Virus genome (UHGV): UHGV-0030812
Length of the DNA: 11,091 nt
Strand: one strand, 5' to 3'
Source of the DNA: a virus
In this document: positions 88 through 11,091 of the stretch, one piece after another
How positions within the stretch are numbered: the first letter of the stretch is position 1
Layout: each line of letters begins with the position of its first letter
Notes under the pieces: model-generated
The model's input: only the letters and a program-made list of their open reading frames with translations
What the model was told of the DNA's origin: nothing
Database searches by the model: none
Translations under genes and position numbers: made by a program

Positions 88-151
88 TTTCACTTAACGC
101 ATTGATTTAATTAAATAATTTGCACTACAAAAAGTGCCATAAATCGCAAAA

Positions 152-174
152 TGACTACACCAGTGACTACACCG
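152..174 (+). repeat. Left copy of a 23-bp direct repeat TGACTACACCAGTGACTACACCG (internally a tandem of GTGACTACACC); candidate integrase arm-type site near the element boundary
   Basis: Identical 23-mer recurs at 10865-10887 in the same orientation; looser similarity (GAAACAA / GGAACAA motifs) continues about 50 bp to the right of both copies. Confidence 0.7.
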
Positions 175-282
175 TTCGGTGCACTGTATGAAACAACGTG
201 GAACAAATAGACACAAGAAATATACAGGCGGGTCATCTTTCCAGGGGGAAGCGCGCTAATTCATGAGGGGCGTTAATGTTGA

Positions 283-1118: not shown

Positions 1119-1559
1119 TTAACTTTGCTGTTCTGTAACGACTGATTGTTCCATGCTGGCACGGCGAACGCTTACGGCATGACGCCACCCAGCCAGAAAG
1201 CCAGCCATTTTATTTCGTGCCTTGCTCACATCTTCCGGTGAATAGCCGTAAATCTGCAAACCTTCATCAAATCGATGTTCTGTTTCTTCACTGGAGTACT
1301 CGTCACGCTCAGATGAAAGCAGCCTGGCAAACATAATTTTTTCCAGCGCACTGGTTTCTACGTGATATCTGATGGTCTCAAGACGGCTTTTACCTGAAGA
1401 CCAAAGCAATGTATGCCCGATGTGATAACCGCCAGACTTTCCGCGATCCGCATTAAGATACGGCATCCCCTGTTTGGTCCATGCGCGAATAGTGGTTCTG
1501 TTAACCTTGAAATGTTCAGCTATTTCCTGCTGACTTACAAAACAAGCTTTATCAATCAT
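1119..1559 (-). CDS. Small terminase subunit homologue, lambda Nu1-like (N-terminal winged-HTH); possibly a packaging-redirection factor
   Basis: 146 aa; N-terminus VSQQEIAEHFKVNRTTIRAWTKQGMPYL parallels lambda Nu1 KKQLADIFGASIRTIQNWQEQGMPVL. ATG at 1559-1557 sits about 60 nt downstream of cos copy 2, as Nu1 does relative to cos in lambda. The C-terminal half is not obviously Nu1-like. Confidence 0.65.
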   Translation of the reverse strand: MIDKACFVSQQEIAEHFKVNRTTIRAWTKQGMPYLNADRGKSGGYHIGHTLLWSSGKSRLETIRYHVETSALEKIMFARLLSSERDEYSSEETEHRFDEGLQIYGYSPEDVSKARNKMAGFLAGWRHAVSVRRASMEQSVVTEQQS

Positions 1560-1620
1560 AATGTTACCTTAACTGCATGGTTAAATATTAATCAAGTGGT
1601 GGTGGTGTCATCTTCACGGA

Positions 1621-1690
1621 AAAACGTCATAAATAGCGAAAACCCGCGAGGTCGCCGCCCCGTAACGGGTCCATATGCCGGAAAGGACCC
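1621..1690 (-). other. Lambda-type cos site, copy 2 (minus-strand orientation), directly upstream of the Nu1-like gene
   Basis: Reverse complement reads GGGTCCTTTCCGG...GTTACGGGGCGGCGACCTCGCGGGTTTTCGCTATTTATGA, which matches the remembered lambda right-end/left-end junction almost base for base apart from about 10 nt between cosQ and cosN. Confidence 0.8.
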
Positions 1691-1692
1691 AT

Positions 1693-1716
1693 AAAAAAAA
1701 GCCGGATTTCTCCGGC
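1693..1716 (-). terminator. Rho-independent terminator ending the capsid operon
   Basis: On the minus strand, GCCGGAgaaaUCCGGC (perfect 6-bp GC-rich stem) is followed by U8; lies 7 nt downstream of the 137-aa gene stop. Confidence 0.8.
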
Positions 1717-1722
1717 CTTGTC

Positions 1723-2136
1723 TCAGATGGTTTTCAGTATGCGATCGATGTCGCCGTCATCGCCCTGGTTTCTGCCATCGTATGCCATGCCAGCTGATAC
1801 GGCTTGCGGGCTGTGCATGTCCATAAAGTTTTCAAAGGCTGCGGTAAGTTCCGGCGCAACCTTCGGACGTTCCTGCTCTATGGTCATGCTAAGGATGCTT
1901 TTAGCCGTACCAACATCGATACAAGGCACGTTTGCCATTGCACGTAACAGCGGCTGATAGTCGCCAGATTCATCAAGCGCCATAATCGCATCAGCGCGCG
2001 GCTTGTCCTGCTCTTCCAGTTTGTTGAGTTGATATACGGCCTCGTAGGTTGATAAACCTCTGTCAGCCATTGCCCGCGCTTCTGCTTTAAATTTACTCGC
2101 CAGCGGTAGCGCCATGATGCTTTCATTCGTTGCCAT
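1723..2136 (-). CDS. Hypothetical protein, 137 aa, last gene of the capsid operon
   Basis: ATG at 2136-2134 with AGGGGA Shine-Dalgarno, 12 bp after the gpD-like stop. No family recognised. Confidence 0.6.
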   Translation of the reverse strand: MATNESIMALPLASKFKAEARAMADRGLSTYEAVYQLNKLEEQDKPRADAIMALDESGDYQPLLRAMANVPCIDVGTAKSILSMTIEQERPKVAPELTAAFENFMDMHSPQAVSAGMAYDGRNQGDDGDIDRILKTI

Positions 2137-2148
2137 CGTTTCCCCTGC

Positions 2149-2484
2149 TTATCGCGCCAGCGGCTGAACGGATACGCCAGAACCCGCAAAGGCGGCGCAT
2201 TTTTTCGCGTCAGTGTCGGCGCTCTCAGGCCAGTTTACGGCGGCGATATTAAATATCCCCGTCTTGTAACACTGTGCTGATTTCTGCTTTGACGTGTCCA
2301 CGGGGTACGAGGTCAGATAAACAGCCTTGCCAGATTCCTGACCATCCCACGGCTTAAACTCGCCATTGTCCGCCAGCATCAGCGGGGTAAATTCCTGAAT
2401 AACGCCAGCATCAGCGGCAAAATGTACCAGCGTCGTGGCGACCTGCTGACTGCCTGCAAATAACTCAATGTATGGAGTGTCCAT
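2149..2484 (-). CDS. Head decoration protein, lambda gpD-like
   Basis: 111 aa; FTPLMLADNGEFKPWDG and YKTGIFNIAAVNWPESADTDAKKCAAFAGSGVSV align with lambda gpD MTPLMLD...VAWDG and [40 protein letters not shown] Shine-Dalgarno precedes the ATG. Confidence 0.8.
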   Translation of the reverse strand: MDTPYIELFAGSQQVATTLVHFAADAGVIQEFTPLMLADNGEFKPWDGQESGKAVYLTSYPVDTSKQKSAQCYKTGIFNIAAVNWPESADTDAKKCAAFAGSGVSVQPLAR

Positions 2485-2495
2485 AGAATCCCCCG

Positions 2496-3551
2496 TTAAC
2501 CAATTTTGACGGTAACAAATTTGCGAATATCTGCCGGTACCGGCTGCGGTGCACTGTGTGTCTGCACGTACTCAATCGCCGGATCTCCGTCCTCAATCCA
2601 GTTTTTCGGGTAGTACATGTTTTGCGTTGCCCCCGTTCTTACTGCGTCCTGATCCATAATCGCACCATAGGCCACCAGCCCTTTATTGTTGGTGTTGCCC
2701 AGGACAAGCAAATCAGGCTCAAGGAAATATTTTTCTGTGCCGTCGCTGTCGGCGTATTTGCCGGAATAGACGATAAGGGCAATATCGCCCAGATAGCCTT
2801 TAAAGCTCACCACTTCGCCCAAGTTTTTACATGCCAGCTCTGCGGCGGACTCTGAACCACGGGAAAGATCGTACAGCTCACGGAATTTTTTAAAGCTGCG
2901 TAACGTTCGCCATACCTCAGCGCCCATAATCATGACGTTGGCGGGGCAACCTGCCTGATCGGCGTATAGTTCGATATCATAGATTGGATCGTGGATTTCT
3001 TTGTCCTGCTCTGACCATTTTTTACCGTCGGCCTGCTCTATGATGTTTTTTTCCGGTATCTTCCAGTCGATTTCATAGCGCTCTATGCCTTCGCCCTCAA
3101 TGATGTTTTTTCCGGTCGTTACCGCATTTACCGCCAGCCATTCCACGCGCGCTTTTATGGCGTTTATCTGGCGGCGCATATTGCCAGTAATCAGGCGCAT
3201 ACGGCGATAGGTAGGGTCGTTAAGCTGTGCCGGATCTTCTCCAGCCATGCGCATGATGGTTTTCGTTGGATCGATTTCGTGCTTTGGCTTCATGTAGCCA
3301 GGTTTGATTGTGCTGGTTTCGTACCCTTTATCGCGCTGAACCTGGCTACCCACCATAGGCGAACAAAACGCCGACATGGTGACTTCTTCAATGTCCAGGG
3401 TATCCAGCATGATGTTTTGCGTGCTGAATGTCGCCACGTTCGGGAAAAACAGCGTGGTAAACAGCGGACTGAATTTAAATTCCGCAATATCCCCGCGATT
3501 CAGGTACGCAAAAAGCTGGTTAGTGTTAAGTGCCATTGCTTTTACTGTCAT
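2496..3551 (-). CDS. Major capsid protein, lambda gpE family
   Basis: 351 aa, colinear with lambda gpE (341 aa) along its whole length: FKFSPLFTTLFFP / FKFDPLFLRLFF, PGYMKPKHEIDP / PGYVKPKHEVNP, EDPAQLNDPTYRRMRLI / EDPQNLADPAYRRRRII, VLGNT, YPKNW. Start ATG overlaps the upstream stop as TAATG. Confidence 0.9.
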   Translation of the reverse strand: MTVKAMALNTNQLFAYLNRGDIAEFKFSPLFTTLFFPNVATFSTQNIMLDTLDIEEVTMSAFCSPMVGSQVQRDKGYETSTIKPGYMKPKHEIDPTKTIMRMAGEDPAQLNDPTYRRMRLITGNMRRQINAIKARVEWLAVNAVTTGKNIIEGEGIERYEIDWKIPEKNIIEQADGKKWSEQDKEIHDPIYDIELYADQAGCPANVMIMGAEVWRTLRSFKKFRELYDLSRGSESAAELACKNLGEVVSFKGYLGDIALIVYSGKYADSDGTEKYFLEPDLLVLGNTNNKGLVAYGAIMDQDAVRTGATQNMYYPKNWIEDGDPAIEYVQTHSAPQPVPADIRKFVTVKIG

Positions 3552-3757
3552 TATTCCCCCCCGTGAACCTGATTCATACCCAGCGCCGCGCGTAAATAGG
3601 CGCGTACCTGCCAGCCTGTTGACGGCTCAACCATCGCCAGCGGATCAAGTCCTGCCGCAATGCCTGCTTTTACGTTCTGCTGGTGGCGTTCCTTGAGCGC
3701 CTTCACGATGTCGGGGCTTATGTACACCGAAACACCGCCTTTTTTCTCTTCAGCCAT
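3551..3757 (-). CDS. Hypothetical protein, 68 aa, first gene of the capsid operon
   Basis: ATG at 3757-3755 with AAGAGGAA Shine-Dalgarno; its stop overlaps the capsid gene start, indicating translational coupling. No family recognised. Confidence 0.55.
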   Translation of the reverse strand: MAEEKKGGVSVYISPDIVKALKERHQQNVKAGIAAGLDPLAMVEPSTGWQVRAYLRAALGMNQVHGGE

Positions 3758-3785
3758 AGTAAGAAATTCCTCTTTGACTTAAAAA

Positions 3786-3841
3786 ATTATAACTGGATGT
3801 TCATCCAGTTCTGATTATAATCAGGATTGCATTTTGTGCAA
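3786..3841 (-). promoter_or_regulatory. Capsid-operon promoter with three contiguous palindromes: AACTGGATG-tt-CATCCAGTT (3791-3810), CTGATTATAATCAG (3811-3824), TTGCAttttgTGCAA (3827-3841)
   Basis: Minus-strand TATAAT (3791-3786) about 30 nt upstream of the orf68 ATG; the palindromes overlap and follow the -10/-35 region, consistent with a tightly regulated late promoter. Confidence 0.5.
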
Positions 3842-3921
3842 TGATATTGAGTTGTGTTGCAAATTATGAAATGATGATCCCGCTCATGTGTGTCAGTGCA
3901 CCAAAAAGCCTCATATGCAAA

Positions 3922-3959
3922 AGCCCGATAAGCCACCTCTGACCTTATCGGGCTTTTTT
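3922..3959 (+). terminator. Strong hairpin plus T-tract, best read as a plus-strand intrinsic terminator (possibly bidirectional)
   Basis: AGCCCGATAAG-(11 nt loop)-CTTATCGGGCT is a perfect 11-bp stem followed by TTTTTT on the plus strand. No annotated plus-strand gene lies upstream. Confidence 0.55.
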
Positions 3960-4134
3960 ATCTGCCTGCAAAGATGTCGAACGAAAATTAACCACAACCA
4001 TCATCTTTTTTGCATCAAAACAATTAAAAACAATAAATTACGCTCATGATGATGATGACGATAAAATCACAAAAATGCGCTTTTTTCCGCGCCTCCCGCC
4101 CCGTGTTCAGGCCCACCCCGCCAGGAGGACCCGT

Positions 4135-4156
4135 AAAAAAGCCGGATTGCTCCAGC
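4135..4156 (-). terminator. Rho-independent terminator after the SSB-like gene
   Basis: On the minus strand, GCUGGAgcaaUCCGGC (6-bp stem with one G-U pair) is followed by U6. Sequence is related to the 1693-1716 terminator. Confidence 0.55.
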
Positions 4157-4172: not shown

Positions 4173-4595
4173 TTAAAACGGTATGTTATCCCCGTACGGA
4201 TCATCATTCCCCGCCTGTTGTTTTGCCCTGTTCAGCGCGTCAGTAGCCTGGCCCTGTTGACCTTTTTTGCCGCCCAGTCGCGCCGTTCGCGCACTGATTA
4301 CACTGTCTGCGATAACCTGCCAGCCCTGCCGCGTTTCTCCGTTCTGCCCAGTCCACTGGCTGATCTGCATGTTACCCGCCACGCTCAGGAGTTCACCCTT
4401 GCGGTGCCTTTCCAGTGCTTCGGCCTGTCTGCCAAATGCCAGGACGGATAACCACATCGTCGCCGTTCCGTCATCTGCCTGGCTGCACGGAAGGGGGACC
4501 GCCATACGCGCCAGCGTCATCGGTGTGCCCTTGCTGGTCTGTTTTACCTGCGGGTCGTCCACCAGCCGCCCGTAAGCTGCTATCTGTGCTGTCAT
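4173..4595 (-). CDS. ssb: Single-stranded DNA-binding protein (SSB) homologue
   Basis: 140 aa; the OB-fold core WLSVLAFGRQAEALERHRKGELLSVAGNMQISQWTGQNGETRQGWQVIAD parallels E. coli SSB [51 protein letters not shown]. The acidic C-terminal tip DDPYGDNIPF resembles the SSB DDDIPF tail. Confidence 0.8.
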   Translation of the reverse strand: MTAQIAAYGRLVDDPQVKQTSKGTPMTLARMAVPLPCSQADDGTATMWLSVLAFGRQAEALERHRKGELLSVAGNMQISQWTGQNGETRQGWQVIADSVISARTARLGGKKGQQGQATDALNRAKQQAGNDDPYGDNIPF

Positions 4596-5158: not shown

Positions 5159-6913
5159 TTATAAAAACGCGTCGCACTCGTCTGTTGTTATTGCGTTAGT
5201 CTGCGTTACTCCCTTAACTTTCCGCGTAATATATTCATGTCCGTAAACTTTCGCGGCTGGCTTCATAGCCTTGCCAAAGTCATTTACGTTTAGCGGTTTG
5301 CTCCTGCCTGCGTACGCCATAAACGCCAGATAGACGCGGTAAAGACTGTTTCTGGTCGTGTACTTCACTGAATCGCCACCGCCGCCCATCATCAGGCCGC
5401 GTGCTTCCTCCAGAAAATTCAGGAACTGGCAAAACTCAATAACCGGATCCGTCTGTTGCTTTATTGCCAGAGCTTCATCACCGTCACGCTGTTCCAGTAG
5501 TAAAGCCCTCGCCTTCTCAGGGTCGGTAAAGTTCGCCAGCAATCGGCGGATAATGACAGGGATTTCAGCCGCGATCTTTTCCGGTAGCTCCCTGTCTTTT
5601 TCGGCCTCACTGACGATATTGTCGAAACGGAAAATCACGCGACGACGTGCCACACCTCCGGCCCGTTCGGTGAATATCATCGGGTTATTGTTGGTCGCCA
5701 GCACCACCGCCCTGATTACAGCCGTGAAACGCTTTTCGTATTTCGGGTTAATTTCCACGGGGTCACCGCCCGTGATTTTCTTGATGCCCGTTCCTTCGCC
5801 TGTATATTTCGGCTGGTCAGCCAGGACGATAAGACGACTCCCGACAACCTGCGCACGTCCACCAGCATCATCAAGCGATGTCATTTCAGCGCTTACCGTG
5901 TTCTGTTTCCCTGCCAGAAGGCTGGCTATGTGTGTGAATGTACTTTTACCGCTCCCGCCGTCTCCGGTGGCCTCAATAAACATCTGCCAGTCGTACCGGT
6001 TCGCCATAATCATGTACAGCGCGGCACATATACGCATCATCTTGCGCGGGTCTTTTCCGGCTGCGTGCTCAAGCCATTTATGAAAGTTTGGCGCGTTATC
6101 GCGGATGTTCTCCCCTGGTGCTGGTGGCGTGTACTCAATGCCGTTGTGCGTGGTGATCCAGTTCTCCGGCGTGTGCGGGGAAAATTCCCCCGTTTTCAGG
6201 TCAAGCGCACCATTGGCGAACGGCAACAAATCGCCGGACGGCTCGCCCATTGGTTCGGCAATAACTTTTAACGCTTCCACGGCGTTATTGATTACGCGCT
6301 TGCTGAAAGTGGCCCTGTGCTCTGAATAGATCGCCACCATTTCGCGGCTAAGTTCCATTGTGCTGACCGGACACCATACCCCGCCGCGCCATACGTGAAC
6401 GATTTCACTTTCAGGATGTACGCAAACGCCATCAAAGCGATCGGCAAGCAGCTGCGCGCGCTCACTGTCCGCCATCTGCGAAAGTTGCGCCTTTTGCTTT
6501 ACCGGAAGCTCAATGACCAGACCATCAGAAAGATTCTGGCGCTCACGGGCCAGATATTCGCGCCAGTTCTCCACCTTCTGACCGTGCATACCATCAGGGT
6601 AAAAATTTGCATCCTGTACGCCTGCCGCCGCCAGCTTCTGACCAATCGCCTTTATCATTACTGGCGCAAGATATCCGGCCCTGAATATGCGCACGGATTT
6701 TCTGCCTTCCGGCACAATTTGCAGCTTATCCAGTTCGGATAACTGCTGCTCCCCAAGCCACACAGGAGGCTCATTATCTCCGGCCATACGCGCGTCATGT
6801 TCCTGCCATTGTTTTGCGTGTGACCAGGCATCACTACCCGCAAAAATAATGACTTCTGTTTCTTTGTGTTTTATGCCGCGTGACTGCTGTTTTACGTTCG
6901 GTGCCAGTTTCAT
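5159..6913 (-). CDS. Replication initiator: primase fused to a P4-alpha / D5-type SF3 helicase domain (Pri-Rep)
   Basis: 584 aa; Walker A GDGGSGKST and downstream LIVLAD-type Walker B in the C-terminal half. Size and layout typical of P4-family/PICI primase-helicases. ATG overlaps the upstream stop (ATGA). Confidence 0.85.
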   Translation of the reverse strand: MKLAPNVKQQSRGIKHKETEVIIFAGSDAWSHAKQWQEHDARMAGDNEPPVWLGEQQLSELDKLQIVPEGRKSVRIFRAGYLAPVMIKAIGQKLAAAGVQDANFYPDGMHGQKVENWREYLARERQNLSDGLVIELPVKQKAQLSQMADSERAQLLADRFDGVCVHPESEIVHVWRGGVWCPVSTMELSREMVAIYSEHRATFSKRVINNAVEALKVIAEPMGEPSGDLLPFANGALDLKTGEFSPHTPENWITTHNGIEYTPPAPGENIRDNAPNFHKWLEHAAGKDPRKMMRICAALYMIMANRYDWQMFIEATGDGGSGKSTFTHIASLLAGKQNTVSAEMTSLDDAGGRAQVVGSRLIVLADQPKYTGEGTGIKKITGGDPVEINPKYEKRFTAVIRAVVLATNNNPMIFTERAGGVARRRVIFRFDNIVSEAEKDRELPEKIAAEIPVIIRRLLANFTDPEKARALLLEQRDGDEALAIKQQTDPVIEFCQFLNFLEEARGLMMGGGGDSVKYTTRNSLYRVYLAFMAYAGRSKPLNVNDFGKAMKPAAKVYGHEYITRKVKGVTQTNAITTDECDAFL

Positions 6914-7640: not shown

Positions 7641-7873
7641 AACCCCCCCCCATTTTCACAATCAGCAATCAGGATGGCTTTAGCCTCATTCAGCGCCATA
7701 TCCGCACTAAGTTGCATAACCGCCAGCGAATGAGGAACGAAAGCCCCTGCATATTCTGTTTCACTGGTGGCGTGCTTATGCGCCATGTCAGCAATAACAG
7801 AAATATCAATAAGCGCGTGCATCAGCGTAGTGAGCGCGGCGGCTGCTGCGTCCGGTGTGGTTTTATTGCACAT
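7613..7873 (-). CDS. Hypothetical protein, 86 aa from the ATG with the AGGAGG Shine-Dalgarno
   Basis: AGGAGG sits 7 nt upstream of the ATG at 7873-7871, so the ORF-track start at 7915 is probably too long. The ATG overlaps the end of the Icd-like gene. Ends ENGGG LCVMIVLIP* right after the G9 tract. Confidence 0.5.
   Translation of the reverse strand: MCNKTTPDAAAAALTTLMHALIDISVIADMAHKHATSETEYAGAFVPHSLAVMQLSADMALNEAKAILIADCENGGGLCVMIVLIP
7643..7651. repeat. Homopolymer C9 (G9 on the coding strand) at the orf86/orf73 junction
   Basis: Read directly; the two ORFs overlap across it in different frames. Confidence 0.9.
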
Positions 7874-8063
7874 GGCACACCTCCTGACGAATACGGGCGG
7901 CGAATACAGCAACACAACCGGACGGGCAACGGCTACGCGCTTCGCGTTCCGTCCAGGCGGTTACGTGGATGATTTGAGATTCTCCGGCACTTAGTGCCAG
8001 AAAACGCCACACAAAGGCAGTTTGTGTGTGCGCCAGACGTGGGGTATGCTGTGTTCCAGCCAT
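7863..8063 (-). CDS. Small protein (66 aa) resembling the Icd-like family of P4-type elements; first gene of the leftward replication operon
   Basis: ATG at 8063-8061 with AGGAG 7 nt upstream. Sequence MAGTQHTPRLAHTQTAFVWRFLALS...TEREARSRCP...FAARIRQE matches my recollection of Icd-like proteins (unverified). The ORF track shows it only as the tail of an implausible 378-aa read-through ORF. Confidence 0.5.
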   Translation of the reverse strand: MAGTQHTPRLAHTQTAFVWRFLALSAGESQIIHVTAWTEREARSRCPSGCVAVFAARIRQEVCHVQ

Positions 8064-8151
8064 AATCGTTACTCCTGTTAACGGTTTGGTTAGACGCCCC
8101 GCTACTGCCGCAAACAGTTCGGGGCGTTGTCGTTTACATCCTCTTACTGAG

Positions 8152-8228
8152 GTGTGATTTAAATTAAATTCAACTGAATCACAGGTCAAGTGTTTTTTGT
8201 GATTCTTTTTTGTGTATACTGAATCACA
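8152..8228. promoter_or_regulatory. Divergent promoter/operator region with two inverted-repeat sites: TGTGATT-N15-TGAATCACA (8153-8183) and TGTGATTC-N14-TGAATCACA (8198-8228)
   Basis: Repeats read directly. They lie between the leftward operon (start 8063) and the rightward RHH gene (start 8251). The second site overlaps a TATACT -10 candidate (8215-8220). Confidence 0.5.
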
Positions 8229-8250
8229 TCTTTTGTTTAGGAGAATGCAC

Positions 8251-8556
8251 ATGGCAAAAAACACTATCAACGACAAATCAAAACAGATTTCAATTCGTAT
8301 CCCACATGATGCTTTTGATGGCATGGAATCCGTAAAACTGGACGGCGAAAGCAACGCCGGATTCATAGTAACCGCCATGCGCGGGGAGATCGCCCGCCGC
8401 CAGGCAGAAGGAAGCAGTGAAAATCCTCTGATTTCTTCTCTCGATGCATTGGCGCAAGTGGAAAAAATTGGTATTAAAGCTACGGAAGAACTCGGGCAAC
8501 TTATCGCCATCGCTCGTGAAGAACTACAGCGCCGCAAGGCCAAAGAATCAGAATAA
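8251..8556 (+). CDS. Ribbon-helix-helix (CopG/Arc-type) DNA-binding protein; candidate repressor of the element
   Basis: 101 aa from the ATG at 8251, with GGAGA 7 nt upstream (the ORF-track GTG start at 8212 is probably too long). N-terminal KQISIRIPHDAFDGMESV...AGFIVTAMRGEIARR fits a beta-strand/helix/helix RHH fold. Divergent from the replication operon. Confidence 0.6.
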   Translation: MAKNTINDKSKQISIRIPHDAFDGMESVKLDGESNAGFIVTAMRGEIARRQAEGSSENPLISSLDALAQVEKIGIKATEELGQLIAIAREELQRRKAKESE

Positions 8557-8598
8557 TCACTATCAGCGCCGTGGTGTGAGGTATTACGGCGCATTGCT

Positions 8599-8787
8599 AT
8601 GCAGGACAACACAATGACCGATAAAGAATTGACCAAAACATTATCACCGGCACGGAAAAGACGGCGCAGAAAGATAGAGCATGAATCAGAAAGATTCGCG
8701 CCATGTGCTTTTGCCCTTGAGCAATTCCTTAAAGAATACAGGGAAAAGCGCTCATTGCAGGTATGGCAACGAACTGAACCAGACTGA
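8599..8787 (+). CDS. Hypothetical small basic protein, 62 aa (KRRRRK motif)
   Basis: ORF downstream of the RHH gene, ending before the 8883-8910 terminator. No convincing Shine-Dalgarno, so weakly supported. Confidence 0.3.
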   Translation: MQDNTMTDKELTKTLSPARKRRRRKIEHESERFAPCAFALEQFLKEYREKRSLQVWQRTEPD

Positions 8788-8882
8788 TTGCATTGCCCAC
8801 CAGCCTGATAGCGGCTATCATCCCCGTGCTTATGTTTGGGATCACACACACAAACGGCGCAGCGGGTTATCTGTTCAGAAAG

Positions 8883-8910
8883 GCGGCTCCATTTCGGGGC
8901 CGCTTTTTTT
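8883..8910 (+). terminator. Rho-independent terminator for the rightward RHH transcript
   Basis: GCGGCTCC-atttc-GGGGCCGC (8-bp stem, one G-U pair) followed by T7. Confidence 0.7.
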
Positions 8911-9056
8911 ATGCCTGAAAAACCCCAATTTTGTGGTTTTCCAGTCTCACCAGGGCGAACGAATCCCCGCCCACGTTCTGGCGTATATTCAATCTTCATG
9001 GTTATAGCTCTGTGTTCAGATGATTGATGTGTGGCGGCTGCGTGCCGCCAGCGTGA

Positions 9057-9245
9057 TTAATGAACTGCCTTGCAGCTATCCTTCCAGGCCAGAACCTCGG
9101 ATAAAGACCAGCCAACGGAACGACCGCTAAGTTTACGACGTGATGGGAATTGTCCGGCCTTTTCCAGGCGGTAGCGGCATGAGCGGCTAAGGCCTGTTAG
9201 CTTTTCGCATTCTTTTTCACGTATAAACCGATCAGTGCTTAACAC
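9057..9245 (-). CDS. alpA: AlpA-family transcriptional regulator (phage/satellite excisionase-like HTH)
   Basis: 62 aa, GTG start with AAGGGGG Shine-Dalgarno. LTGLSRSCRYRLEKAGQFPSRRKLSGRSVGWSLSEVLAW is the canonical AlpA pattern. Immediately upstream of int on the same strand. Confidence 0.85.
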   Translation of the reverse strand: MLSTDRFIREKECEKLTGLSRSCRYRLEKAGQFPSRRKLSGRSVGWSLSEVLAWKDSCKAVH

Positions 9246-9609: not shown

Positions 9610-10839
9610 TTATTTTCTTCTGGCTACTGGTAGCGTGGTTACGTTTTCATGTGTTCCCGCCAGTATCCCTAACCGCTCCGTCCACATATCCAGCGCATTG
9701 CGTTTAGCATCCAGATAACGGGAATGATTATAAACTCGCTGCATTCCTGGCATCTGGTGGCCTGTAAGCTGCTCCACGACATGCGGATCAACGCCTAAAT
9801 CGTTCAGCATGGTTGTAAAGGTGCGCCGGATGTCATGCAGTGACCAGTGAGGATGATTAAGCCTCCTGTGCGCTAATCTTCCATACTGCGATACGCTGGC
9901 CTCCTGTTTCACTTCCCCCAGCAATAAGCCCGTGTGCCTGTTCTGCTCCACCAGCTGCGTGACGAACGGCAGGATCGCTTCCGGTATGGGCCGGAATATT
10001 GCGACCTTCGTTTTGCTGTGCTCCTTCGGAACGGTCCATAGCATTTCCGTAAAATCCCACTCCCCGATCTCCGATAACCTCAGTTCTACCGTTCTGGCTC
10101 CGAAGACAATCAGGAGGCGGATTAACGCGACGTAGTAAGGGGAGAATATTTTTTTGTCCAGTGCCTGCAATAATTCGCCAAGTTCTTTGTTACTTAAGAC
10201 ACGTTCGCTTATATCCGGTTTTTTCCCAACGTCCGCCACGTTCAGATCGTCCAGAACGTTGCTGATTGCATAGCGCCGCCTACGGCAGAACTTAAGCGCC
10301 TGTTTGCACGCCTGTAGCACGAATCCGGCAGTAACAGGCGTTCGCTTTGCCACCTGGTCAAAACAGGCCAGCCAGTGCCGTAGCTCGCATTTATCCAGCG
10401 GCATAGCACCAATCTGCTGTATTACGTGATTATTAAGTCGCCTTTTCAGGGCGATATAATCCACGCGGTTTTCCTTTACGTAATACTCAAGCCAGTAGGT
10501 GAGCGCATCGCCAACCGTTACGGGCTTTAACGCTTCCTGTACGGTGTAATTCATCTCATGACGTGGATTTTTCCCCTCAGCCAGCCATGTGCGACACTGT
10601 GCGGCTTTTTCCCTGGCTGCTTTCAGGCTCAGATCAGGATAACTTCCCAGCTTAATGCGTTCGGGTCGTGTCTCCCTTCCCGTTCCGGCCCTGTATGTGA
10701 AATACCAGGTCAATTTCCCTGATGTTAAATATTTCACGCTCAGGTTTCCGCCATCACTATAAAACGTGTTTTTCTCCGCTGGCTTACCATGAAGTTTCCT
10801 TAGCAAGGTATCGCTCAGTTTGTTCATTGCTCTGCTCAC
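9610..10839 (-). CDS. int: Tyrosine recombinase, P4-type integrase
   Basis: 409 aa. Catalytic signature: R in ARTVELR, HDIRRTF (H-x-x-R), GHQMPGMQRVYNHSRY (H and Y nucleophile); N-terminal arm-binding-type domain. Start may be GTG at 10839 (AGAGGGGG upstream) or ATG at 10827. Confidence 0.9.
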   Translation of the reverse strand: MSRAMNKLSDTLLRKLHGKPAEKNTFYSDGGNLSVKYLTSGKLTWYFTYRAGTGRETRPERIKLGSYPDLSLKAAREKAAQCRTWLAEGKNPRHEMNYTVQEALKPVTVGDALTYWLEYYVKENRVDYIALKRRLNNHVIQQIGAMPLDKCELRHWLACFDQVAKRTPVTAGFVLQACKQALKFCRRRRYAISNVLDDLNVADVGKKPDISERVLSNKELGELLQALDKKIFSPYYVALIRLLIVFGARTVELRLSEIGEWDFTEMLWTVPKEHSKTKVAIFRPIPEAILPFVTQLVEQNRHTGLLLGEVKQEASVSQYGRLAHRRLNHPHWSLHDIRRTFTTMLNDLGVDPHVVEQLTGHQMPGMQRVYNHSRYLDAKRNALDMWTERLGILAGTHENVTTLPVARRK

Positions 10840-10864
10840 GTTTTACCCCCTCTTTACGAAAAAG

Positions 10865-10887
10865 TGACTACACCAGTGACTACACCG
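10865..10887 (+). repeat. Right copy of the 23-bp direct repeat TGACTACACCAGTGACTACACCG, about 25 bp upstream of the int start
   Basis: Identical to 152-174; followed by GAAACAAG / GGAACAAG motifs as at the left copy. Confidence 0.7.
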
Positions 10888-11091
10888 ATCGTTGCACAAA
10901 GGGCTACAACGTGAAACAAGCTGGAACAAGGAAAATCACAAATCTGTTGATAATCAAAAACATAATGCACAGCCTGAAACATTATGAAACAGCAAAAAAC
11001 ACTAAATGATAAAATGCTGTTATTCTTAACCCGCTGGTGCAACACATGGTCCGCTGGCGAGTGCCGCGTGTACTGGCGGTGTCGATTTTGA

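What the first reader, a model, noticed from the sequence alone, without database searches (positions are those of the whole stretch)
1723..3757. Capsid E and decoration D homologues in a satellite that lacks portal, protease, scaffold and large terminase
The four-gene operon orf68 / gpE-like / gpD-like / orf137 has its own palindrome-rich promoter and strong terminator. The gpE homologue is full length and colinear with lambda gpE, and the gpD homologue keeps the conserved C-terminal block. No other head-assembly gene is present in the 10.8-kb element, so these proteins presumably co-assemble with, or compete against, helper-phage capsid proteins. This is the arrangement expected for a capsid-size redirection or helper-interference module, analogous in logic to the capsid-homologue Ccm of cos-type staphylococcal islands. 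Both roles are hypotheses here; orf68 and orf137 are candidate partners such as scaffold or size determinants.
Basis: partly seen in the sequence, partly recalled or inferred. Interest (0 to 1): 0.75.

Follow-up and report, generated by a model that had tools for sequence, protein, structure and literature searches.

The report
Known capsid cassette of a PICI
An E. coli phage-parasitising island carries its own coat, cement and scaffold-like genes; the genes are real and kept by selection, but the same cassette is already described in the near-identical island EcCICFT073, where deleting it had no measurable effect.

Summary
Window 1723-3757 (minus strand) is a tight operon: orf68, a full-length lambda gpE homologue, a gpD homologue and orf137. 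It has its own conserved promoter and terminator.

The island is an Rpp-type Gram-negative PICI: int, alpA-like, primase, SSB, this cassette, a lambda-type cos site and RppA. The whole late region is about 98% identical in protein to EcCICFT073. Its capsid gene (c1499, crystal structure 3BQW) and decoration gene (c1500) were reported in 2018.

Published deletions there changed neither island transfer nor lambda interference. DNA packaged with lambda was phage-sized. Only RppA blocked lambda.

What this work adds:
- orf137 is a truncated Nu3-type scaffold (hhalign 97%).
- PICI E and D each form a satellite-specific clade across six genera (bootstrap 200/200), always in int-alpA-primase islands.
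- E has dN/dS of 0.06-0.14.

The cassette is therefore neither a prophage remnant nor decaying. My best guess (about 0.4) is that the island makes its own shell on the helper's portal, and that this is redundant with helper capsids in laboratory assays.

The parts
3758..3911 (-). Promoter and leader of the capsid operon. It holds a -35 TTGCAC (3841-3836), a 16-nt spacer and a -10 TATAAT (3819-3814). Two ATTGCA-N5-TGCAAT operator-like palindromes lie at 3826-3842 and 3856-3872, and CTGATTATAATCAG lies over the -10 (3811-3824). A leader hairpin sits at 3791-3810 and the RBS AAGAGGAA at 3767-3774.
   Evidence: Sequence. Repeats. The block is nearly invariant in six PICIs, including one whose cassette genes are about 65% identical (alignment A2). 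Promoter activity is inferred, not shown.
3912..3964 (-). Strong hairpin (21-nt arms, 86% complementary) followed by T residues. It probably acts as a terminator that insulates the cassette from the upstream replication/SSB genes.
   Evidence: I1. Conserved in five of the six aligned PICIs (all but STEC383).
3551..3757 (-). orf68, a small conserved protein of unknown function. It is translationally coupled to the capsid gene.
   Evidence: It matches phrog_3255 at 8.4e-37. Homologues 60-68% identical sit in the same slot in Salmonella and Pluralibacter PICIs. dN/dS is about 0.16-0.4 in most comparisons, with small counts. The AF2 model has two helices at pLDDT 73 and no fold match. It shows no similarity to lambda gpW.
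2496..3551 (-). Major capsid protein, lambda gpE family (HK97 fold), of the PICI-specific clade.
   Evidence: Pfam PF03864 at 1.9e-51. It is 44% identical to lambda E. It differs at 7 of 351 residues from PDB 3BQW, which is the EcCICFT073 protein. dN/dS is 0.06-0.14. It is monophyletic with other PICI MCPs at 200/200 bootstraps.
2149..2484 (-). Head decoration protein, gpD/SHP family, of the PICI-specific clade.
   Evidence: Pfam PF02924 at 2.6e-17. The best solved relative is phage 21 SHP, 1td0. dN/dS is 0.08-0.30. It is monophyletic with other PICI D proteins at 200/200, and its tree is congruent with the E tree.
1723..2136 (-). orf137, a truncated Nu3-type internal scaffold homologue with no protease domain.
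   Evidence: Residues 45-119 hit the C-terminal end of phrog_53 at 7.4e-9. It is 37% identical over 83 residues to the C-terminus of phage 21 gp5/gp6, E 2e-10. hhalign against the Nu3/gpC C-terminal family gives 97.0%, E 9.6e-11, over 112 columns. A Lelliottia PICI has a full 447-aa S49 protease/scaffold in this same slot. The AF2 model is all-helical with a flexible C-terminal tail.
1698..1719 (-). Intrinsic terminator of the capsid operon.
   Evidence: 9-bp stem, 5 GC pairs, T-run. Conserved in EcCICFT073.
1620..1665 (-). Lambda-type cos site. The 12-nt cohesive-end sequence GGGCGGCGACCT is at 1649-1660. It is oriented so that packaging proceeds towards rpp.
   Evidence: Invariant with the left ends of lambda and phage 21 over about 35 nt, after which cosB diverges. 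The same 80 nt hit lambdoid prophage cos regions in 4189 of 5426 E. coli genomes.
1119..1559 (-). RppA homologue (redirecting phage packaging). It is context for the cassette, not part of the four-gene operon.
   Evidence: 98% identical to the 144-aa EcCICFT073 protein in the RppA position. It matches the RppC structure 6hlk at E 5.5e-31.

Best explanation
This is the conserved capsid cassette of the enterobacterial EcCICFT073-type PICIs.

It encodes a matched set of proteins that all touch the coat protein:
- the coat protein itself (E);
- its external cement (D);
- a shortened Nu3-type internal scaffold (orf137);
- a small conserved partner of unknown function (orf68).

The most likely working:
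1. After helper induction, the operon is transcribed from its own operator-controlled promoter.
2. Its products assemble satellite-made shells, either pure or mixed with helper coat protein.
3. Assembly takes place on the helper's portal, and the helper's protease matures the shells.
4. The helper terminase fills them. RppA redirects that terminase to the island's cos site, which lies immediately downstream.

The shells are probably full-size. Four island genomes (4 x 10,713 = 42.9 kb) equal one phage-21-type genome.

The function is redundant with the helper's own capsids in laboratory crosses. That would explain the published null phenotypes. It would matter only with particular helpers or when helper capsids are limiting.

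What is shown: the homologies, the operon structure, purifying selection, and the satellite-specific lineage. What is inferred: expression on induction, assembly on the helper portal, and the size of the shells.
For: The genes are maintained, not decaying:
- All four ORFs are intact in six PICIs.
- dN/dS is 0.06-0.14 for E, 0.08-0.30 for D and 0.07-0.54 for orf137.
- 597 of 5426 complete E. coli genomes carry the four-gene cassette at 92.7% nucleotide identity or more.

The lineage is satellite-specific:
- PICI E and PICI D each split from lambda, 21, Gifsy-1, N15, phi80 and an Edwardsiella helper in 200/200 NJ bootstraps, with congruent trees.
- PICI-to-phage E identity is 38-48%, against 51-98% within PICIs.
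- No phage among 50,697 records exceeds 47.5% identity.
- Every relative examined in Salmonella, Edwardsiella, Lelliottia, Serratia and Pluralibacter sits in an int-alpA-primase island, in the order (orf~70)-E-D.

The set is what a shell needs:
- E is full length and colinear with lambda E. Its ortholog crystallised as the PDB entry 3BQW, 'Putative capsid protein of prophage'.
- D belongs to the gpD/SHP family.
- orf137 is a Nu3-family scaffold that keeps the C-terminal FxxFMxxHSP block.
- A Lelliottia PICI keeps a full protease-scaffold gene in that slot, plus a head-completion gene.

The cassette moves as a unit:
- It occurs with different integrases, replication modules, and either Rpp or TerS.
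- Its promoter block stays conserved throughout.

Size arithmetic: 4 x 10,713 = 42,852 bp, against a phage 21 genome of 42,931 bp. The EcCICFT073 native-type helper next to icd has a coat protein 100% identical to that of phage 21.
Against: - In EcCICFT073, deleting c1499 or c1500 left transfer by the resident helper unchanged. Replacing c1499 with cat left it no lower (1e5 against 8e3 for the tetA-marked island), and that island was also transferred by lambda and phi80. The marker in c1501 probably disrupts the orf137 homologue; I infer this only from gene numbering (PMC6092414).
- No one has shown that the proteins are made or are present in particles.
- A coat protein 42-45% identical to the helper's would have to work with a foreign portal, protease, FI, W and FII.
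- One Pluralibacter PICI has the E gene frameshifted at a poly-A run.
- Some PICIs have E and D but no detectable scaffold homologue. hhalign of the small ORFs in that slot gives a probability of 0.4%.
- The fold searches for orf68 and orf137 were uninformative.
Confidence: 0.4

Rival explanations
1. Capsid-size redirection. The island's coat protein and its short scaffold would build small capsids that hold one 10.7-kb island genome and exclude the helper genome, as Ccm does in SaPIbov5 and CpmB in SaPI1.
For: - The scaffold homologue is shorter than that of phage 21 (137 against 200 aa) but keeps the C-terminal block. From memory, this resembles how SaPI1 CpmB mimics the 80alpha scaffold.
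- A related Pasteurella PICI with a capsid homologue does make small capsids (PMC6092414).
- The size test for EcCICFT073 was reported only with lambda, not with the native phage-21-type helper.
Against: - With lambda, all packaged DNA was phage-sized.
- The Penades group states that these E. coli PICIs are packaged in large capsids as concatemers.
- The island length is almost exactly one quarter of a phage 21 genome.
- Changing the island's size changed transfer 10-100 fold, as expected for packaging into full-size heads.
Confidence: 0.1
2. Helper interference. The island's E, D or scaffold would poison helper capsid assembly by co-assembling into defective shells or by titrating portal or protease.
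For: - Satellites commonly interfere at capsid assembly.
- The divergent E (42-45% identity to helpers) could be an incompatible subunit.
Against: - Deleting c1499 or c1500 did not relieve lambda interference.
- Of the post-ori genes expressed alone, only rppA inhibited lambda and phi80. Deleting rppA restored plaques fully.
- Strong purifying selection along the whole of E fits a working shell protein better than a poison.
Confidence: 0.07
3. Back-up or complementation role tied to the helper-embedded lifestyle. Many islands of this clade integrate inside helper head genes (E, A, B). Carrying E and D would cover the interrupted or under-expressed helper function, or supply homology for recombination with helpers. 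Islands at chromosomal sites, like this one, would inherit the cassette.
For: - Three of the nine related loci examined are embedded in helper head genes: E (L004), terminase A (L012) and portal (L015).
- PMC10111431 makes this proposal and reports capsid genes in 21 of 29 reference PICIs.
Against: - Excision restores the helper gene, so no back-up is needed.
- The E/D clade is old and distinct from helper genes, not a recent copy of a neighbour.
- The cassette is equally conserved in islands at tqsA, tRNA-Pro and the phoQ-side site.
- It does not explain D, orf68 or the scaffold homologue.
Confidence: 0.13
4. Modification of hijacked helper capsids, or another non-shell role. The island D and E would decorate, stabilise or mark helper-made heads that carry island concatemers, or the proteins would serve in regulation or defence.
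For: - de Sousa et al. postulate capsid modification or stabilisation by such PICI genes.
- From memory, D-family proteins can act across phages: 21 SHP stabilises lambda heads.
- The null transfer phenotype fits a subtle stability role.
Against: - It does not explain why a full coat protein and a scaffold homologue are kept under strong constraint.
- No evidence here bears on it directly.
Confidence: 0.15
5. Functionless passenger. The cassette would be a relic of the phage ancestor of these islands, carried along because it sits between essential modules.
For: - No phenotype was found for c1499 or c1500.
- E is frameshifted in a Pluralibacter PICI.
- The slot after D varies in content between lineages.
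Against: - dN/dS is 0.06-0.14 for E at dS up to 0.34, with intact ORFs in every E. coli copy examined.
- The pair is kept across six genera while synonymous sites are saturated.
- The promoter is conserved.
Confidence: 0.1

Closest known systems
EcCICFT073 late region (c1499 capsid, c1500 decoration, c1501, c1503 rppA) of E. coli CFT073; Fillol-Salom et al. 2018 and 2019
   Same: The gene order is the same: orf68-E-D-orf137-terminator-cos-rppA-orf93. Protein identities are E 98.0%, D 98.2%, orf137 99.3%, orf68 98.5% and Rpp 98%. The E protein of that island is the crystal structure 3BQW.
   Different: This island uses a different integration site (tqsA, against the phoQ-side site), so at least the att context of its left half differs. 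It lacks the PerC-family gene that precedes the cassette in CFT073.
Head gene block C/Nu3-D-E of lambda and phage 21
   Same: The three protein families are the same: S49-protease-linked Nu3 scaffold, gpD/SHP cement and gpE coat.
   Different: The gene order is permuted (E-D-Nu3-like, against C/Nu3-D-E). The protease domain, portal, W, FI, FII and terminase are absent. Identity is only 42-45% for E and 36-45% for D, and the island proteins form a separate clade.
Ccm of the cos-type staphylococcal island SaPIbov5
   Same: It is a satellite-encoded HK97-fold coat-protein homologue in an island that carries the helper's cos site.
   Different: Ccm causes small capsids and blocks the helper (as cited in PMC6092414). 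The EcCICFT073 ortholog of this gene does neither with lambda. Ccm has no cognate decoration or scaffold partner, and there is no sequence relationship.
Capsid-forming PICIs (cf-PICI, EcCIEDL933)
   Same: They share the same kind of int-alpA-rep left half. The satellite encodes its own coat protein, and its capsid genes form a lineage separate from phages.
   Different: cf-PICIs encode the full head and packaging set (portal, protease, connectors, HNH, TerS, TerL), make small capsids and steal only tails. This island has none of those. Its coat protein is of the lambda-E family.
Helper-embedded PICIs (11capE type; Mageeney et al. 2023)
   Same: They belong to the same E-D clade and share the SSB-E-D layout (L004).
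   Different: Those islands are integrated inside helper late genes and lack orf68 and the Nu3-like gene. This island is at a chromosomal site.
SaPI1 CpmB (alternative internal scaffold). This analogy is from memory and was not tested here.
   Same: It is a short satellite protein that shares the coat-binding C-terminus of the helper's scaffold.
   Different: CpmB acts on the helper's coat protein and is proven to redirect capsid size. orf137 comes with its own coat protein and has no known phenotype.

Membership tests
Gram-negative PICI, EcCICFT073/Rpp type | Tyrosine integrase at one end, with att repeats flanking an element of about 10-15 kb | tested here: met
   The integrase is at 9610-10839 (Pfam Arm-DNA-bind_3 plus Phage_integrase). 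Direct repeats are 10,713 bp apart. The element is inserted in tqsA.
Gram-negative PICI, EcCICFT073/Rpp type | alpA-type regulator and a primase/replicase module, with genes running in one direction | tested here: met
   A 62-aa HTH regulator lies at 9057-9245 (annotation). The D5_N/DUF5906 primase is at 5159-6913. All of these genes are on the minus strand.
Gram-negative PICI, EcCICFT073/Rpp type | Helper-type cos site plus an Rpp protein | tested here: met
   cosN is identical to that of lambda and 21. The Rpp is 98% identical to the CFT073 RppA-position protein and hits the RppC structure at 5.5e-31.
Gram-negative PICI, EcCICFT073/Rpp type | No tail, lysis, portal or large-terminase genes | tested here: met
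   The Pfam and PHROG scans of the ten largest minus-strand ORFs and the RefSeq annotation of the rest show none.
Gram-negative PICI, EcCICFT073/Rpp type | Induction, replication and high-frequency transfer by a helper phage | not testable with these tools
   This has been shown experimentally only for EcCICFT073 (PMC6092414).
Lambda gpE major capsid family (PF03864) | Full-length match above the curated cut-off, colinear with lambda E | tested here: met
   175.5 bits against a cut-off of 22.9. Identity to lambda E is 44% over 328 aa. Lambda capsid structures 7vi9 hit at 3.8e-83.
gpD/SHP head decoration family (PF02924) | Match above the curated cut-off, with similarity to solved gpD/SHP structures | tested here: met
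   63.5 bits against a cut-off of 29.1. It hits 1td0 (phage 21 SHP) at 5.6e-13 and lambda gpD at about 1e-9.
Nu3/gpC-C-terminal scaffold family | Homology to the repeat region and C-terminal block of Nu3-type scaffolds | tested here: met
   hhalign gives 97.0%, E 9.6e-11. BLASTP against phage 21 gp6 gives E 4e-11. The phrog_53 C-terminal end hits at 7.4e-9. BLASTP found no significant alignment to the lambda gpC/Nu3 reading frame or to N15 gp6.
Nu3/gpC-C-terminal scaffold family | Encoded in-frame within, or fused to, an S49 protease gene | tested here: not met
   orf137 is a free-standing 137-aa ORF with no protease domain. A Lelliottia PICI has the full fusion in the same slot.
Capsid-forming PICI (cf-PICI) | Own portal, protease, head-tail connectors, TerL, TerS and HNH | tested here: not met
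   None of these is present in the window.
Ccm-type size-redirection/interference module | The satellite coat homologue causes small capsids and blocks the helper | not testable with these tools
   I could not test this here. Published tests on the 98%-identical ortholog were negative with lambda. DNA was phage-sized, the deletions did not relieve interference, and only rppA interferes.
Degraded lambdoid prophage remnant | Related loci show flanking portal, protease, terminase or tail genes of the same phage | tested here: not met
   Nine related loci in six genera are all int-alpA-primase islands. Helper head genes flank the island only where it is inserted inside a helper gene.

The most novel reading that the evidence does not exclude
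These classical E. coli PICIs are half-way capsid-formers. They make their own coat/cement/scaffold shell, from a lineage that has evolved inside satellites for a long time. They steal only the portal, protease, terminase and tail from the helper. This would be a third strategy, between using helper capsids and building whole capsids as cf-PICIs do. The shells might be selectively filled with island DNA or might widen the range of usable helpers.
Probability: 0.3. Interest if true: 0.65.

Novelty: already known. Interest (0 to 1): 0.3.

Why it matters
The cassette itself is published. What remains open is why most Gram-negative PICIs keep a coat gene and a decoration gene that have no laboratory phenotype.

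The results here sharpen that question:
- The genes are under strong purifying selection.
- They form a satellite-only lineage across Enterobacterales.
- In E. coli they travel with a Nu3-type scaffold remnant, and in a Lelliottia PICI with a full protease-scaffold gene.

If the proteins really form shells, the boundary between satellites that hijack capsids and satellites that build them becomes a continuum. It would also mean that particles carrying virulence islands may differ in composition from helper virions.

If the proteins do something else, this would be a case of HK97-fold proteins recruited to a non-capsid role.

Tried and rejected
- The search for related loci with the coat protein in genome contigs found nothing confirmable. 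I used protein searches plus look-up of encoding contigs instead.
- orf68 as a lambda gpW analogue (same length, 68 aa): no similarity.
- orf68 as a ribbon-helix-helix regulator: the AF2 model has two helices but no significant fold match, so this is left open.
- Fold search of the orf137 model against viral structures gave nothing significant; the top hit, a 'scaffolding protein', had E 0.42.
- The small ORFs that follow D in the STEC383, Salmonella and Pluralibacter PICIs as mini-scaffolds: hhalign probability 0.4%, so not supported.
- orf137 against lambda gpC (which contains Nu3) and against N15 gp6 by BLASTP: no significant alignment. Only the profile comparison and phage 21 show the relationship.
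- Rfam scan of the whole window: no hit at E of 0.1 or below.
- NCBIfam has no model for any of the four cassette proteins.
- dN/dS between distant PICI lineages was unusable because synonymous sites are saturated. I used closer pairs instead.
- Degraded-prophage reading: rejected on the context of the related loci.
Full report
**What is there**

The window is 100% identical to E. coli strain 300709, NZ_CP025903.1 positions 1895501-1906621. It holds an island inserted in tqsA, bounded by imperfect direct repeats 10,713 bp apart. Nearly all of its genes run on the minus strand. In order they are:
- integrase, 9610-10839;
- a small HTH (alpA-type) regulator, 9057-9245;
- icd-like and DUF4222 genes;
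- a D5_N/DUF5906 primase, 5159-6913;
- orf91 and SSB, 4173-4595;
- a 415-nt gap;
- the four genes of the finding;
- a terminator, a cos site, a 146-aa protein and orf93.

- orf68 (3551-3757), the gpE homologue (2496-3551), the gpD homologue (2149-2484) and orf137 (1723-2136) are tightly packed. orf68 and E overlap (ATGA), and 11-12-nt spacers carry G-rich ribosome-binding sites.
- The E homologue matches Pfam Phage_cap_E at 1.9e-51 over the whole profile. It is 44% identical to lambda gpE with only two gapped positions.
- The D homologue matches Pfam HDPD at 2.6e-17. It is closest to phage 21 SHP among solved structures.
- A 9-bp-stem terminator with a T-run follows orf137 at 1698-1719.
- Upstream, a strong hairpin at 3912-3964 separates the operon from the SSB gene.
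- A TTGCAC-16-TATAAT promoter (3841-3814) is overlapped by two ATTGCA-N5-TGCAAT palindromes 30 bp apart and by CTGATTATAATCAG.
- This roughly 170-nt block is almost invariant in six PICIs, including one whose cassette genes are only about 65% identical. It is therefore a real regulatory region, although its regulator is unknown.

**What the island is**

- The 12-nt lambda cohesive-end sequence and about 35 nt around it are invariant with lambda and phage 21 at 1620-1665. After that, cosB diverges.
- The 146-aa protein downstream of cos is a homologue of the solved RppC (6hlk, E 5.5e-31). It is 98% identical to the 144-aa protein in the RppA position of E. coli CFT073.
- I located EcCICFT073 in NC_004431.1. 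It has the same order: orf68, E, D, a 137-aa ORF, a 144-aa Rpp and a 93-aa ORF, next to phoQ.
- Window proteins against CFT073 are 98.0% (E), 98.2% (D), 99.3% (orf137) and 98.5% (orf68) identical.
- The seven residues that distinguish the window E from PDB 3BQW are exactly the CFT073 residues. The crystal structure is therefore that of the EcCICFT073 capsid protein.

**What is already published**

- Fillol-Salom et al. 2018 (PMC6092414) name c1499 as a putative capsid protein and c1500 as a head decoration protein of EcCICFT073, and they invoke the Ccm analogy explicitly.
- They deleted each gene. Lambda was still blocked, and transfer by the resident prophage was unchanged.
[quoted passage not shown] That island was transferred by the native helper, lambda and phi80.
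- DNA packaged with lambda was all phage-sized.
- The standard marked island carries tetA in c1501. By gene numbering this is the orf137 homologue; that identification is my inference.
- Fillol-Salom et al. 2019 (PMC6739421) expressed each gene downstream of the ori separately. Only c1503 (rppA) inhibited lambda and phi80, and deleting it fully restored plaques.
- Dokland 2019 (PMC6893505) and Mageeney et al. 2023 (PMC10111431) repeat that the capsid homologue has no known role. The latter counts capsid genes in 21 of 29 reference Gram-negative PICIs.
- de Sousa et al. only postulate a role in modifying or stabilising capsids.
- The finding is therefore not new.

**What I could add: orf137 is a scaffold homologue**

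- Its residues 45-119 hit the C-terminal end of the PHROG 'head maturation protease' family.
- Residues 49-131 are 37% identical to the C-terminal 83 residues of the phage 21 gp5/gp6 protease-scaffold.
- A profile of the orf137 family aligns to a profile of Nu3/gpC C-terminal regions with 97.0% probability (E 9.6e-11, 112 columns). The alignment includes the FxxFMxxHSPxxV block near the C-terminus.
- The predicted structure is all-helical with a flexible tail.
- A Lelliottia PICI of the same clade carries a full 447-aa S49 protease-scaffold, 52% identical to phage 21 gp5, in exactly this slot after D. It also carries a head-completion gene.
- 'Lacks scaffold' is therefore inaccurate. The cassette holds E, D and a Nu3 remnant, in the order E-D-Nu3, which is permuted from the phage order C/Nu3-D-E.

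**What I could add: a satellite-specific lineage**

- The best coat-protein match among 50,697 phage records is 47.5% identical.
- The native-type helper next to EcCICFT073 has a coat protein identical to that of phage 21. It is only 45% identical to the island's coat protein.
- Relatives 54-69% identical occur in Salmonella, Edwardsiella, Lelliottia, Serratia and Pluralibacter. Every one examined lies in an int-alpA-primase island as (small ORF)-E-D.
- In neighbour-joining trees, PICI E and PICI D each separate from lambda, 21, Gifsy-1, N15, phi80 and an Edwardsiella helper in 200 of 200 bootstraps. The two trees are congruent.
- Helper head genes flank the island only where the island is itself inserted in a helper gene (L004 in E, L012 in terminase A, L015 in portal).

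**What I could add: selection and mobility**

- Among five E. coli PICIs with dS up to 0.34, dN/dS is 0.06-0.14 for E, 0.08-0.30 for D and 0.07-0.54 for orf137. For orf68 it is about 0.16-0.4 in most comparisons, up to 0.76 where counts are very small. All ORFs are intact.
- 597 of 5426 complete E. coli genomes carry the four-gene cassette at 92.7% nucleotide identity or more. About a thousand more match the cassette only at 60-80% identity. Of the sampled weaker hits, the longer ones span a PICI-type E-D junction and the short ones hit only a capsid gene.
- The cassette is mobile as a unit. It occurs with different integrases and att sites, with primase or RepA-helicase replication modules, and with either Rpp or a 180-aa TerS after cos.
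- One counter-example exists: the E gene of a Pluralibacter PICI is frameshifted at a poly-A run in two assemblies.

**How it most likely works**

The contents are the coat protein plus the partners that contact it: its external cement and its internal scaffold. All three are co-inherited, constrained and under a conserved promoter. That is what one expects of proteins that still build a shell.

My best estimate (0.4) is that the island makes its own shell, pure or mixed with helper coat protein, on the helper's portal. The helper's protease would mature it. The helper terminase, redirected by RppA to the adjacent cos site, would fill it.

Full-size shells are favoured for three reasons:
- Four island genomes make 42,852 bp, against 42,931 bp for phage 21.
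- Changing the island's size changed transfer 10-100 fold.
- Only phage-sized DNA was seen with lambda.

The published null phenotypes then reflect redundancy with helper capsids.

None of the assembly steps has been shown. The rival explanations are size redirection with untested helpers, interference, back-up for the helper-embedded lifestyle, modification of helper capsids, and a functionless relic. They are listed with their evidence in the rival section.

orf68 is conserved across genera and translationally coupled to E. It has no recognisable fold or family.

**Verdict**

The satellite identity, the homologies and the scaffold guess are right. The size-redirection and interference roles are contradicted by experiments with lambda and phi80 on a 98%-identical ortholog.
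- Novelty: already known.
- Interest is modest. The open question of why PICIs keep these genes is real and now better framed, but the finding as written restates published observations and hypotheses.

Noticed in passing
window 3970-4139 (minus strand, between the SSB stop and the hairpin at 3912-3964): About 170 nt of non-coding DNA is 87-91% identical to unannotated stretches of Stx1/Stx2-converting phages. It is 74-78% identical to a stretch 100-200 nt from the right end of mEp460, mEp213 and mEp043. EcCICFT073-type islands lack it and carry a PerC-family gene there instead. There is no Rfam hit, and its function is unknown.
   Followed up: partly
window 148-223 and 10861-10936; phage 21 record OL657228.1: The island length between the att repeats is 10,713 bp. 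Four copies make 42,852 bp, within 0.2% of the phage 21 genome (42,931 bp). This suggests selection for a quarter-genome size, to be packaged as tetramers in full-size heads.
   Followed up: partly
L016 10409-11752 and 4117-4518 (Lelliottia sp. SL45, GCA_026672535.1): A PICI of the same E-D clade carries a full-length S49 head protease/scaffold gene directly after D. It also carries a Phage_HCP head-completion gene between alpA and the primase. This is an intermediate gene content between classical and capsid-forming PICIs.
   Followed up: partly
L010 9207-10270 and L011 7785-8838 (Pluralibacter gergoviae PICI): The PICI coat gene is split by a +1 frameshift at a poly-A run (…AAGKK|WSE…) in two assemblies. 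D, orf68 and Rpp are intact. It could be a pseudogene, a slippage-prone site or an assembly error.
   Followed up: no
L004 (E. coli MLI106K3), L012 (Salmonella), L015 (Edwardsiella tarda): Three of the related islands are helper-embedded. They are inserted in the helper's coat gene E, terminase A gene and portal gene respectively, each next to the helper's own head genes.
   Followed up: partly
L006, L007, L008 (E. coli DEC9B, O103:H2 12009, THO-006), about 8275-8818 in each locus: The same four-gene cassette (93-97% identical) is followed after cos by a 180-aa 'terminase small subunit' instead of Rpp. The packaging-specificity gene is therefore swapped independently of the capsid cassette.
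   Followed up: no
window 7863-8999 (minus strand): The 378-aa Cys/Ser/Arg-rich ORF in the mechanical ORF list is very likely spurious. RefSeq annotates a YlcI/YnfO gene on the plus strand (about 8281-8586) and icd-like fragments here instead.
   Followed up: no
window 1617-1697: The cos region matches about 80 nt in 4189 of 5426 complete E. coli genomes, including an unannotated stretch near 580.6 kb in K-12-derived strains (from memory, the DLP12 prophage region). This shows how widespread lambda-type cos sites are as potential packaging signals.
   Followed up: no
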